From the human T2T-CHM13v2.0 reference genome, Homo sapiens, in assembly GCF_009914755.1 (NCBI RefSeq), contig NC_060932.1: a DNA stretch of 64,000 nucleotides. One strand, given 5' to 3'. Positions 53,505 to 57,507 of the stretch are shown one piece after another; the stretch's first letter is position 1; each line of letters starts with the position of its first letter. Position numbers and translations under genes: made by a program. A model generated the notes under the pieces. That model was not told where the DNA came from and searched no databases. It saw only the letters and a program-made list of their open reading frames with translations.

Positions 53505-54400
53505 GTCACTCATTAAATAAATATCCACTGTGCTTCTACTATGGCAGGAACTATGCTGGATACTGGGGCTAAATTAATGAGCAACAGAGATCTGATTCTA
53601 ATACTTGTAAAGATCCCACTGTAATGGGGGAGGCAGACATTCATCAACTGATCACACAAATAGATGCTAATGGCAAGAATCAAAAAGCCTACAAAGTCTT
53701 ATGTACATATTTCAAAGAATTTGACCCACTAGAAGAGGTCAAGGGAGGCTTCCTTTAGAAAATGACATTTAAGCCTAAATCTGAAGGGTCAGTAGGAACC
53801 GGCTGGGCAAGGCTGAGGGAAGGAGAGAAAAGATGAGTGCTCCAGAAAAAGGAATCACCAAAAATCCTGTGACAGATGGGAGAACAGAATACCAGGGTGA
53901 CAGGAGTGCTGGAAGTGGAGGGAAAGGGCTGTACAATGGGATGAGGTTAGAGAACTAGGCAGGAGTCAGCACTAGGCAGGCCTTGAAGATCACATTTGAG
54001 ATTTTGGTTTTCATATTAAAAGTGGGAAACTATTAGAGGGTTCTATTCAGGGAGATGCCAAGATCAAAATTTTCTTTTTAAAAGATTAGCCTGCTGTAGG
54101 GTGCTAATTGAAGGAGACCAAGAGTAGGCCCTGGGAGAAGGGTTAGAGTGGTGGCAGTATAAATTGAAAGATGTGGAAGGATTTAAGACATTGAAAGATA
54201 TGGAAGGATCTAAGACATGGAGGTGTTCTCACTATAACTCTGTGATAGGTTAGTCTAGAGGGGCAGAGGAGAGGTAATGGGAGGTAGGATGTCATTTAAG
54301 GAGTCCATTTAATGGAATCAGATGATTATAGAGAGGGGATCATTCATTAGGAGAGGGAATACTGAAAGAGAACTGCAGGTTAAAAGGGGCACTGACCACA
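53505..54400. mobile_element. Degenerate L2
   Basis: cactcattaaataaatat...ctatgctggatactgggg L2 3'-end pattern. Confidence 0.55.
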
Positions 54401-54459
54401 GTACCAAATTTGGGGAAATGTTAAAAAAGACTTTAAGCTCAATTTAGGTTTTTTACTAT

Positions 54460-54465
54460 TTTATT
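54460..54465 (-). terminator. NEFL: NEFL distal poly(A) signal (long 3'UTR isoform)
   Basis: tttatt on the plus strand ~1.83 kb past the stop, just before an L2-derived region. Implies a ~3.6 kb mRNA, consistent with the known long isoform. Confidence 0.7.
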
Positions 54466-55470
54466 ATGGCACACAGGATAGAGGATGGTACAGTTTTCTT
54501 ACTTCAACCAAGTAATTCTCAAAGCATCCAGCTATTTCCATTTGGCTAAAGTTACTTTTTGCACATAGCTTGCATCTGTTTGAGACTTACCATGTACATC
54601 AACCCAGGTCTAGTAAGCAGAAATGTGAAAAGTTTTGTTTCTGAGGAGACGCCTCATCTTTACAGAAGCCAATACACTGAGAGCCTTCATAGTTCCAATC
54701 CATTACCATCATGGCAAGGAAGCACTTTACCTATTTGCATAGCAACATATATTTAACTAGAAATAGGTGGTACAAAGGGATTAAGTAACTTTAAATGGAG
54801 ACCACTTTGGTTTCAGGTTAAATTAATAACTTATAGAGATCGTCTAAAAAACAAATATTGAATGAAATTAGCTGACAAAGCAATTGTTTCAGAACAAAGG
54901 CAGAATAGCAGATAGTAATATCATCTATATTTATTCCACATCAAATGCAAGAGCGTTCTTAACTTTACGACAGAAAGGATACATGGGGCGTGTATTTGAT
55001 GCAATGTCCAACCAGTCAAGCTATCATTGAAATCCAAATATTTCCCAGTAGAGACATGCAGAGCAATGTCAATGTAACATACAAGCATATTACCTCCCCC
55101 CTTAAGTGACTCATAATTTCATTACTTGTGTCTGTAGCTTTTAAAGGTTTAAAAATGTGTAGCATTAAGTGGTATTTACTTGAGGCAACAGAATTACGCT
55201 TAACAACACACTAAATCATGAGCTCAGGATTGCAGGCAACATGTTTGCAGTGGAGTGGCAAATAACCTTTGGTAGTTTTAATCCCTTCTCCTGAAATTAT
55301 ATATAGATAAAAAATTATTCCTTCTTATTGTACCATGTTCTCAGGTTTTAACCTCCTCCCATGATATTTAGACTATATTTTAAAATGCAGTTATAGGGAT
55401 GAATGTATGGGATTCATATTCTATCCATATTGCATTGTGACATATCAGTTTGAAATGACCTATTTATCAT

Positions 55471-55508
55471 GGTTCCATAGTGTAATGGTTAGCACTCTAG
55501 ACTCTGAA
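55471..55508 (+). pseudogene. Tailless retropseudogene of the tRNA-Gln(CTG) 5' half, antisense within the NEFL 3'UTR
   Basis: GGTTCCATAGTGTAATGGTTAGCACTCTAGACTCTGAA is 36/38 identical to tRNA-Gln-CTG nt 1-38 (anticodon CTG at 55504-55506). Flanked by direct repeats 55451-55470 / 55505-55524 (18/20). Confidence 0.9.
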
Positions 55509-55880
55509 ATGACCTGTTTACCATAAAGAGTGTATCTGTCAAGTAATTTCAGAATTGCTCCCTAGAAAGCCATCCCAAAACCTAACACAACACGTGTTAT
55601 GAGGCAAAGTGTATTGTTATTTATAGACTTTCTCATTTACTCATGTTTATTATCAGTAAAATTTTTGTGGGGAGAGATTTCACAAGTAATCATGACATAA
55701 CTGTATCCCTCAGAATTTCCAATTGAAGGAAGAAAAAAAAGTATTGGTAATTGTTAAAATTTCAACTTTTTAAAAAATTGGAGGTCAATAGTCCACTGGT
55801 ATATACTTTATATTGGTGCCATCTTTAAGGTATTTTAATTAAGTAACAACCACAGCAAAAAATACATCATTCGGTATAAC

Positions 55881-55897
55881 TTTATTTACTATTTATT
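55881..55897 (-). terminator. NEFL: NEFL proximal poly(A) signals (tandem AATAAA at 55892-55897 and 55881-55886)
   Basis: Two tttatt on the plus strand ~400 nt past the stop, consistent with the known short NEFL mRNA. Confidence 0.75.
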
Positions 55898-56297
55898 GCA
55901 CATAACTCAGGGTCTTTAATTGCTAACCACCGAAGGTTCAAAGGACTATTTTTCCATGAAGTTTAACATTAACATTAGTGAATTCATTTACTCATGTGGT
56001 GTTTTTTATTGTAAACATCTGAATGATTCACATTGCCGTAGATCCTGAACTCATAAGCGTGGACCATGCACAGGCTGGCAGCAAGCCAGAAAGCCACTCT
56101 GCAAGCAAACAGATACTCTGCATAAAGAGGAAATTCATAGCACAACATTGAATGTCCAACCTAAGTCATCTCAGAATTATACATATATTGACTTTTTAAT
56201 TCACATAGAATCTGGAACTCAACTGGTTGGTTGGTTGGTGATGGGGTTGACCTGATTTCGGGAGAATTATTCCTGAAATAATTAAGGAAATGGGGGT

Positions 56298-56531
<234 letters not shown>

Positions 56532-56907
56532 TCAGAATGCTACCAAAACCTCCCAGCTCCACTCTCTCCAAAAGCACATGTAACAGACAAAGCTTGCCAT
56601 GAATAATTTGCCACTGAACACATATTTAAATCGAATGAGATCACTTCTAGGTATGGGAAGCTCTGCTCCTCTCCAAGACTTAACCTCAATATTTCTTTCA
56701 TTATGTGTCTGGTATCTATTTTTGTTCTTTAGGACACCAACCTGCTGTGTTAAATGATTATATTAAAAAATGAAAATTTTGACCAATCACCTCATTCAGA
56801 GTAGATGCCTTAGGAAAGTTTTGCTAAACAAACAGAAAATTTATTTATGATTCTAATGTCATATATGAATAAATGAGCAAGGCTTCATTTGTCTTATCCA
56901 CCTCCTA

Positions 56908-57507
<600 letters not shown>

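What the first reader, a model, noticed from the sequence alone, without database searches (positions are those of the whole stretch)
55451..55524. Retroposed tRNA-Gln(CTG) 5' half sits antisense in the long-isoform-specific NEFL 3'UTR: a built-in target site for tRNA halves?
Seen: 38 nt matching tRNA-Gln-CTG nt 1-38 (2 G>A mismatches, at nt 9 and 29). It starts exactly at the tRNA 5' end, stops in the anticodon loop and has no poly(A). It is flanked by a 20-bp duplication whose first bases (TGAA) overlap the tRNA 3' end, at an L1-endonuclease-like ttt/gaaa site. It lies between the proximal (55881-55897) and distal (54460) poly(A) signals, on the strand opposite NEFL. Established: this is the architecture of L1-mediated tailless retropseudogenes. 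Angiogenin cuts anticodon loops to give 5' tRNA halves, and tRNA-Gln G9 is m1G-modified by TRMT10A, whose loss promotes tRNA-Gln fragmentation. Inference: only the long NEFL mRNA carries ~34-38 nt fully pairable with 5'-tiRNA-Gln(CTG), since both mismatches become G:U pairs. That could allow stress-dependent, isoform-selective control of NEFL, or sponging of the half. The nt-9 mismatch could be a fossil reverse-transcriptase misread of m1G9. The A box is present but there is no B box, so independent Pol III transcription is unlikely.
Basis: partly seen in the sequence, partly recalled or inferred. Interest (0 to 1): 0.8.

Follow-up and report, generated by a model that had tools for sequence, protein, structure and literature searches.

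The report
Catalogued tRNA-Gln retrocopy in NEFL 3'UTR
The long 3'UTR of the neurofilament light gene carries, in antisense, a 38-base retroposed copy of the front half of a glutamine tRNA; it is real but is an already catalogued and probably neutral LINE-1 by-product, and its proposed role as a docking site for tRNA halves is untested.

Summary
Window 55471-55508 (+) matches nt 1-38 of this genome's own tRNA-Gln-CTG genes at 36 of 38 positions (G>A at nt 9 and nt 29). It starts at G1, ends in the anticodon loop and has no A-tail. It is flanked by an 18/20 duplication (55451-55470 / 55505-55524) whose first four bases overlap tRNA nt 35-38. It lies antisense in the NEFL 3'UTR, between the proximal and distal AATAAA signals.

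The element is not new. Noll et al. 2015 list it as a tailless retropseudogene (hg19 chr8:24809496-24809533), one of 71 Gln-derived rows. These copies arise from LINE-1 target-primed reverse transcription that starts inside RNA loops, so no angiogenin-cut half is required.

The idea of a tRNA-half target site rests only on complementarity, which any antisense copy has. I found no paper supporting it and could not test conservation.

Among 38 Gln copies with target-site duplications, nt 9 is the main mismatch hot spot (12/38). It is mismatched in 9 of 10 copies that start at the mature 5' end, against 3 of 28 with extra 5' bases and 0 of 27 gene copies. That fits LINE-1 reverse transcriptase misreading m1G9.

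The parts
55471..55508 (+). Retrocopy of tRNA-Gln-CTG nt 1-38 (acceptor 5' strand, D arm, 5' anticodon stem and loop). G>A at nt 9 (55479) and nt 29 (55499). Antisense to NEFL.
   Evidence: Alignment to the genome's own tRNA-Gln-CTG genes. Listed in Noll 2015 Table S2.
55451..55470 (.). Upstream copy of the target-site duplication. It abuts tRNA nt 1.
   Evidence: the repeat finder family D1, 18/20 identity. Automated duplication search found a 0-nt gap to G1.
55505..55524 (.). Downstream copy of the target-site duplication. Its first 4 bases (55505-55508, TGAA) are shared with tRNA nt 35-38, giving the priming microhomology.
55449..55457 (.). Reconstructed L1-endonuclease-like target TT/TGAAATG. 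It matches 7 of 9 positions of the tailless consensus TT/WAAAAWW.
   Evidence: Sequence. Consensus from Noll 2015 Results.
55881..55897 (-). Two tandem AATAAA hexamers (55897-55892 and 55886-55881) forming the proximal NEFL poly(A) signal, upstream of the element in the mRNA.
   Evidence: Use of a proximal and a distal site in human neurons: Zeng 2025 passages.
54460..54465 (-). Distal AATAAA, 17 nt before the annotated mRNA end at 54443.
   Evidence: and the hub annotation.
54443..56297 (-). NEFL 3'UTR (1855 nt). The antisense tRNA segment starts at UTR position 790.
   Evidence: Hub annotation. Position computed.

Best explanation
The element is a tailless retropseudogene of mature tRNA-Gln-CTG.

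Inferred mechanism, following Noll 2015. LINE-1 endonuclease nicked the bottom strand of the ancestral NEFL 3'UTR at a TT/TGAAA-type site. The freed 3' end paired with the UGAA of the anticodon loop (nt 35-38) of a 5'-processed, m1G9-bearing tRNA-Gln-CTG. The LINE-1 reverse transcriptase then copied the RNA to its 5' end. It inserted a wrong base opposite m1G9, which gives the A now seen at nt 9. Second-strand repair produced the 20-bp duplication.

Substitution load points to an insertion tens of millions of years ago, probably in the primate lineage. Since then the copy appears to have drifted as neutral 3'UTR sequence. It has no demonstrated effect on NEFL.

Shown here: identity to the tRNA, the duplication, the microhomology, the position, the catalogue entry, and the family-wide nt-9 hot spot. 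Inferred: the priming mechanism, the age and the neutrality.
For: - Match of 36/38 to the genome's own tRNA-Gln-CTG genes, starting at G1.
- Duplication of 18/20 with a 4-nt overlap on the tRNA.
- Noll 2015 Table S2 has the row 'chr8 24809496 24809533 chr15.trna7-GlnCTG' among 71 Gln rows.
- That paper's Results say tailless copies are primed internally at loops and A-rich stretches, and that target sites are complementary to the retained 3' end.
- Family survey. Of 48 fetched loci, 38 have a recognisable duplication and an alignable 5' end. Twelve of the 38 end at nt 38, like this one, and 13 of 38 end at nt 43.
- Three of 13 leader-bearing (pre-tRNA-derived) copies also end at nt 37-38. This argues for internal priming rather than a cytoplasmic angiogenin product.
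- Substitution load is 3-4 events over 77-78 site-lineages, or 3.9-5.1% (95% interval 0.8-13%). The rate in the body (1-2 of 38) is no lower than in the duplication (2 differences in 20 bp).
- No paper links NEFL with tRNA fragments.
Against: - Neutrality could not be tested directly. No other mammalian genome is available in these tools, so presence/absence and constraint across primates are unknown. The element is also not among the rows of Noll's dated set: the string '24809' occurs only twice in the supplement, as the start and end of the Table S2 row.
- With 1-2 substitutions in 38 nt, neutral drift and constraint cannot be told apart.
- Both body changes happen to preserve pairing as G:U.
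[quoted passage not shown] The region specific to the long isoform could therefore hold repressive elements, although nothing points to this one.
- Identifying the catalogue row with this element rests on chromosome, order, 38-nt length, parent type and its being the only Gln copy in that part of chr8, plus my recalled hg19 position of NEFL.
Confidence: 0.85

Rival explanations
1. The antisense copy acts as a target or sponge for 5' tRNA-Gln halves (tiRNA) or shorter 5' tRFs. This would give stress-dependent control of the long NEFL isoform, through angiogenin or loss of TRMT10A.
For: - A continuous duplex is predicted: -64 to -66 kcal/mol for a 34-35-nt half, and a net -40 kcal/mol after paying for self-structure within a 198-nt context.
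- The site is present only in the long isoform.
- The distal site is used in human neurons, and a shift towards it accompanies lower NF-L.
- tRNA-Gln-CTG carries TRMT10A-dependent m1G9.
Against: - Complementarity follows automatically from the insertion and carries no information about function.
- At least 38 sister copies exist in this survey and 71 are catalogued.
- There is no sign of constraint.
- The 38-nt site is predicted to be mostly base-paired locally. The chance that any 8-mer within it is unpaired is at most 0.11, and the stretch opposite tRF nt 1-8 sits at the 67th percentile of the UTR.
- Native halves carry m1G9, which cannot pair (Vilardo 2020 section: N1-methylation interferes with canonical pairing).
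- Fragmentation of tRNA-Gln after TRMT10A loss was not seen in HAP1 cells.
- No literature link was found.
Confidence: 0.05
2. Same retroposition, but the template was an angiogenin-type 5' tRNA half ending in the anticodon loop, rather than a full-length tRNA primed internally.
For: - The copy ends at nt 38, inside the loop where angiogenin cuts.
- It starts at the mature 5' end and bears the nt-9 change expected of a modified, mature tRNA.
Against: - There is a 4-nt microhomology between the loop and the target site.
- A second common end point at nt 43, outside the loop, is seen in 13 of 38 copies.
- Leader-bearing copies end at nt 37-38 too.
- For 5S rRNA and U2, Noll 2015 found no evidence for truncated RNA intermediates and concluded internal priming 'by default'.
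Confidence: 0.1
3. Chance similarity, or a DNA-level fragment of a tRNA gene, rather than a retrocopy.
For: ARAGORN and the Rfam gathering threshold do not call a tRNA here.
Against: - 36/38 identity starting exactly at nt 1.
- 0 hits for the reversed control pattern against 51 real hits.
- A flanking 18/20 duplication.
- No tRNA gene flank is retained.
Confidence: 0.01

Closest known systems
Tailless retropseudogenes (Schmitz et al. 2004; Noll et al. 2015, Genome Biol Evol, PMC5322556)
   Same: All defining features are met: a small-RNA copy starting at the RNA's 5' end, 3' truncation in a loop, no A-tail, a target-site duplication, and a target complementary to the retained 3' end. The element itself is a row of their Table S2.
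   Different: Nothing structural. The catalogue gives coordinates only. It does not mention the NEFL 3'UTR context or the nt-9 pattern: 'modif', 'anticodon' and 'misincorp' occur 0 times in its main text. Schmitz 2004 could not be read.
Reverse-transcriptase error signature of m1G9 in tRNA sequencing (Vilardo et al. 2020, PMC7293042; Behrens et al. 2021, PMC8062790)
   Same: The same tRNA and position. Gln-CTG shows a TRMT10A-dependent error signature at G9, and that signature is very low in reads that still carry leader or trailer. The genomic copies mirror this: 9/10 against 3/28.
   Different: Here the enzyme would be LINE-1 ORF2p acting in the germ line, with the record kept in DNA. The base spectrum is even (3 A, 3 C, 3 T among the 9). 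This is an inference from 38 copies, not an assay.
Argonaute-loaded tRFs with miRNA-like targets (Kumar 2014, PMC4203973; Kuscu 2018, PMC6049499; titles and abstract openings seen in the listing)
   Same: A tRNA fragment pairs with an mRNA 3'UTR to repress it.
   Different: Those cases involve 18-22-nt tRFs with seed-type pairing and have experimental support. Here there is a 34-38-nt full antisense match with no experimental support.
3' tRFs targeting the primer-binding sites of LTR retrotransposons
   Same: The complementarity arises from the history of retroelement replication, not from selection for a target site.
   Different: A different part of the tRNA (3' end), a different target (retroviral PBS), and demonstrated activity.

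Membership tests
Tailless retropseudogene (L1-mediated) | Copy of a small RNA beginning at the RNA's own 5' end | tested here: met
   Starts at G1, and the upstream duplication abuts it with a 0-nt gap.
Tailless retropseudogene (L1-mediated) | 3' truncation in a loop or single-stranded region, with no oligo(A) tail | tested here: met
   Ends at nt 38 of the anticodon loop. The next bases are the duplication, not an A-run.
Tailless retropseudogene (L1-mediated) | Flanking target-site duplication | tested here: met
   20 bp, 18/20 identical.
Tailless retropseudogene (L1-mediated) | Target site complementary to the terminal 2-18 nt of the retained RNA | tested here: met
   4 nt (TGAA) shared between tRNA nt 35-38 and the start of the duplication. 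Criterion taken.
Tailless retropseudogene (L1-mediated) | L1-type target consensus TT/WAAAAWW | tested here: met
   TT/TGAAATG matches 7 of 9 positions. The match is approximate.
Tailless retropseudogene (L1-mediated) | Listed in the published human catalogue | tested here: met
   Table S2 row chr8 24809496-24809533, parent chr15.trna7-GlnCTG. The mapping to the window is inferred (see the Against line).
Functional tRNA gene / Pol III unit | Cloverleaf with A and B boxes | tested here: not met
   ARAGORN finds 0 genes. Rfam tRNA scores 12.2 bits against a cut-off of 29, truncated at model position 39. Nothing beyond nt 38 is tRNA-like.
Functional small-RNA target site | Base complementarity to an expressed small RNA | tested here: met
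   A continuous duplex with two G:U pairs is predicted. This is automatic for an antisense copy.
Functional small-RNA target site | Evolutionary constraint on the site | not testable with these tools
   No other mammalian genomes are held. The substitution load of 3.9-5.1% is no lower in the body than in the duplication.
Functional small-RNA target site | Physical interaction or a regulatory effect | not testable with these tools
   No paper with NEFL plus tRNA fragments and CLASH. All 10 listed papers have 0 occurrences of NEFL. Only 2 general reviews hold NEFL, tRNA-derived, UTR and angiogenin together.

The most novel reading that the evidence does not exclude
A primate-specific accident of LINE-1 activity gave the long NEFL mRNA a near-perfect 34-38-nt antisense site for 5' tRNA-Gln halves and tRFs. 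In stressed or TRMT10A-deficient neurons, unmethylated Gln halves would pair there and lower, or be soaked up by, one of the most abundant neuronal mRNAs. That would tie angiogenin and tRNA-modification defects to neurofilament expression. A separate and much more likely reading concerns the family as a whole: tailless tRNA retrocopies are a genomic fossil record of m1G9, showing near-complete and apparently random misincorporation by the LINE-1 reverse transcriptase, and showing that methylation follows 5' processing. My estimate for that second reading is about 0.7.
Probability: 0.05. Interest if true: 0.75.

Novelty: already known. Interest (0 to 1): 0.25.

Why it matters
NEFL mRNA level and 3'UTR isoform choice matter in ALS/FTD and for the NF-L biomarker (Zeng 2025). 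Any isoform-specific regulatory element would therefore be of interest. This element, however, is an ordinary, already catalogued LINE-1 by-product with no evidence of function, so it should not be treated as a lead without a simple deletion or conservation test.

The useful by-product is methodological. Retroposed tRNA copies seem to preserve a modification-dependent reverse-transcription error at nt 9. That could be used to study how LINE-1 reverse transcriptase handles modified templates, and which tRNA maturation states it captures.

Tried and rejected
- ARAGORN on 54000-57000 found no tRNA.
- Rfam at a permissive E-value gave only chance-level hits: adapt33_1, MIR7696 and mir-7957 at E 3.4-6.3, and a sub-threshold truncated tRNA hit.
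- Schmitz 2004 (PMC524414) is not held. Its content is known only through Noll 2015.
- A negative control with a tRNA that has an unmethylated G9 (Gly) could not be run.
- Control families whose genes I already held:
  - Cys-GCA (A9, unmodified): 1 of 31 dispersed hits is mismatched at nt 9. Compare 6 of 27 for Gln under the same type of search (Fisher P 0.04). The 31 were classed as dispersed by location only, out of 58 hits, without checking flanks.
  - Asp-GTC (m1A9): 0 of 6 dispersed hits out of 37. This does not support generality, or it is uninformative, because a pattern covering nt 1-36 cannot see copies that stop at nt 10.
  - iMet (m1G9): 1 of 2 dispersed hits out of 11. Too few to use.
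- nt 29, the element's other mismatch, is not a hot spot: 3 of 38.
- Inverted repeat I1 (55503-55516 / 55540-55553, 14 nt, 86%) was judged to be chance.
- Literature searches that found no link: retropseudogenes + m1G, 0 papers; pseudogenes + tRNA modification + misincorporation + retrotransposition + LINE-1, 0 papers; one listed papers with at least 3 of retropseudogene / m1G / misincorporation / tRNA, all with 0 occurrences of 'retropseudogene'.

Full report
**What is there**

Window 55471-55508 on the plus strand reads as the first 38 nt of tRNA-Gln-CTG. I did not rely on memory for the reference.
- A 19-nt core of the element was searched in the window's own genome and gave 16 hits, against 0 for the reversed control.
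- ARAGORN identified bona fide tRNA-Gln-CTG genes among those loci.
- The alignment shows the window copy equals their nt 1-38 except G>A at nt 9 and nt 29. Similarity stops after nt 38.
- The nt 1-38 pattern with up to 3 mismatches has 51 genomic hits and 0 control hits.
- A 20-bp direct repeat (55451-55470 / 55505-55524, 18/20) brackets the copy. Its first four bases are also tRNA nt 35-38, and its upstream copy abuts G1.
- There is no A-tail.
- ARAGORN calls no tRNA here. The Rfam tRNA model gives only 12.2 bits and is 3'-truncated.
- On the NEFL (minus) strand, AATAAA hexamers lie at 55897-55892 and 55886-55881 and at 54465-54460.

The element therefore sits in the part of the 3'UTR that only the long mRNA contains, in antisense.

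**It is already catalogued**

Noll et al. 2015 (PMC5322556) extracted 2,402 'perfect' human tailless retropseudogenes (abstract). Supplementary file 2, Table S2 (hg19; build stated in the passages) contains the row 'chr8 24809496 24809533 chr15.trna7-GlnCTG'. It is 38 nt long, assigned to the canonical Gln-CTG gene type, and is the first of six chr8 Gln rows.

In the present genome the window copy is the only Gln copy in that part of chr8. The offset also fits my recalled hg19 position of NEFL. I therefore take the row to be this element; that identification is an inference.

Parts 7 and 8 of the file list 71 Gln-derived rows. The string '24809' occurs only twice in the supplements, as the start and end of that row. 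The element is therefore not among the 406 insertions that the authors could date on the primate tree.

**How it arose**

The Results of Noll 2015 describe these copies as LINE-1 target-primed reverse transcription that is primed internally at loops or A-rich single-stranded stretches. The target sites are complementary to the retained 3' end, and the consensus target is TT/WAAAAWW. The authors found no evidence, for 5S rRNA and U2, that pre-cut RNAs are the templates.

The reconstructed NEFL site, TT/TGAAATG, matches 7 of 9 consensus positions.

My own survey agrees. I fetched 48 loci. These are all non-cluster hits to tRNA nt 10-38 with up to 3 mismatches, plus the window copy itself. I kept 38 that have a recognisable duplication and an alignable 5' end. 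The ten dropped were:
- L054, L084 and L086: duplication of 6 matched bases or fewer.
- L088: a 26-nt gap.
- L087 and L091: 5' end not alignable.
- L060, L073 and L077: gene-like or full-length.
- L094: a pseudoautosomal duplicate of L092.

Of the 38, 12 end at nt 38 and 13 at nt 43. Copies ending at nt 38 share (C)TGAA with their duplication.

Thirteen copies carry 4-9 extra 5' bases that resemble the leader upstream of chr1-type genes. I judged this by eye, using L073 as the model. Three of those thirteen still end at nt 37-38.

A full-length tRNA or pre-tRNA primed on the GAA of the anticodon loop explains these ends. An angiogenin-made half is possible for the NEFL copy but is not needed.

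**The nt-9 change**

- Across the 38 copies, nt 9 is mismatched in 12 (6 A, 3 C, 3 T). That is the highest count of any position except nt 20, which varies among the source genes. The next highest are nt 2 (8) and nt 4 (7).
- Against a uniform spread over the 24 positions that are invariant in genes, the binomial P is 4e-5, or 1e-3 after correction.
- None of 27 full-length gene-like copies differs at nt 9.
- Split by the automated measure of extra 5' bases, 9 of 10 copies whose duplication lies within 0-2 nt of G1 are mismatched, against 3 of 28 with 3 or more extra bases (Fisher P 1.2e-5).
- Two of the ten (L076, L081) have poorly matching first bases and might be 5'-truncated. If they are moved to the other class, the counts become 7/8 against 5/30.
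- If the dropped rows are counted as well, 13 of 47 unique loci are mismatched at nt 9.

Vilardo et al. 2020 (PMC7293042, section 18 part 1) show a TRMT10A-dependent error signature at G9 of Gln-CTG. They describe 'random nucleotide incorporation', and they report that the signature is very low in reads still carrying leader or trailer. This means methylation follows end processing. The genomic copies show the same pattern.

The NEFL copy starts exactly at G1, so its A at nt 9 is most likely an insertion-time error, not a later mutation.

Controls were limited:
- Cys-GCA (A9, unmodified): 1 of 31 dispersed hits mismatched at nt 9.
- Asp-GTC (m1A9): 0 of 6. This does not support generality, or it is uninformative.
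- iMet: 1 of 2.
- A G9-unmethylated control could not be run.

I found no paper describing this pattern. Schmitz 2004 could not be read.

**Age and selection**

I counted 2 differences in the duplication and 1-2 in the body. That gives 3-4 events over 77-78 site-lineages, or 3.9-5.1% (95% interval 0.8-13%).

This suggests an insertion tens of millions of years old. It is compatible with the anthropoid burst, in which 258 of the 406 datable tailless copies fall. The conversion from divergence to time rests on primate substitution rates that I recall, not on any tool result. The body is no better preserved than the duplication, but the numbers are too small to exclude constraint.

**Function**

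The long NEFL mRNA can form a continuous duplex with a 34-35-nt Gln half (-64 to -66 kcal/mol). The net gain is about -40 kcal/mol within a 198-nt context. This holds for any antisense copy and ignores modifications, and m1G9 cannot pair.

Local folding predicts that the site is mostly paired. The chance of any 8-mer being unpaired is at most 0.11.

Zeng et al. 2025 (PMC12586192, passages) show that human stem-cell-derived neurons use both the proximal and the most distal NEFL sites. TDP-43 knock-down shifts use to the distal site and lowers RNA and protein. The isoform premise is therefore sound, but nothing singles out this element.

No paper connects NEFL with tRNA fragments:
- Two general reviews hold NEFL, tRNA-derived, UTR and angiogenin together.
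- All 10 listed CLASH/tRF papers have 0 NEFL occurrences.
- None of the 19 papers that print the Gln core sequence names NEFL or neurofilament in its title or abstract opening.

Vilardo 2020 did not see Gln fragmentation in TRMT10A-knock-out HAP1 cells. The report of fragmentation in other cells is known to me only through their citation.

**Verdict**

This is a real, well-described and already catalogued tailless retropseudogene, most likely neutral (0.85). The target-site hypothesis is not excluded but has no support beyond built-in complementarity (about 0.05). The most useful new result is the family-wide nt-9 pattern.

Noticed in passing
Loci L047-L093 (own genome); the window copy is L074: Among 38 tRNA-Gln tailless copies, nt 9 is mismatched in 12. 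The split is 9 of 10 copies that start at the mature 5' end against 3 of 28 with extra 5' bases, and 0 of 27 gene copies. The nine are 3 A, 3 C and 3 T. This looks like near-random insertion by the LINE-1 reverse transcriptase opposite m1G9.
   Followed up: yes
L047, L049, L051, L053, L056, L058, L061, L067, L068, L069, L075, L079, L083: Thirteen copies with G or A at nt 20 (the chr1-cluster gene type) carry a 4-9-nt 5' extension. It ends in TGA or TGG and resembles the sequence upstream of a chr1-type gene (L073). Unprocessed pre-tRNAs were therefore templates. Most of these copies end at nt 43 rather than nt 38.
   Followed up: partly
L076, L078, L088: Three independent copies share a double change at nt 8-9 (TG to CA). 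No full-length gene seen here has it. The cause is unknown: a neighbour effect of the misread, or an unsampled source gene.
   Followed up: no
L047-L093, nt 1-2 and nt 29-30: nt 2 (8 of 38) and nt 1 (4 of 38) are also often mismatched, which suggests untidy 5' ends of the cDNA. nt 30 has 4 mismatches, 3 of them transversions, and nt 29 has 3. No modification is known to me at those positions.
   Followed up: no
G000 chr8:136094770-136094805: One of only two dispersed initiator-tRNA-Met copies also has G9>T. This agrees with m1G9, but n = 2.
   Followed up: no
G000 chr1:160577933-160733103: Twenty-two tRNA-Asp-GTC 5' halves on the minus strand are spaced about 7.4 kb apart. This is a large tandem array of a tRNA-bearing repeat unit in this assembly.
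   Followed up: no
window 55881-55897, minus strand: The proximal NEFL poly(A) signal is a tandem pair of AATAAA hexamers 5 nt apart, followed by a T/GT-rich stretch.
   Followed up: partly
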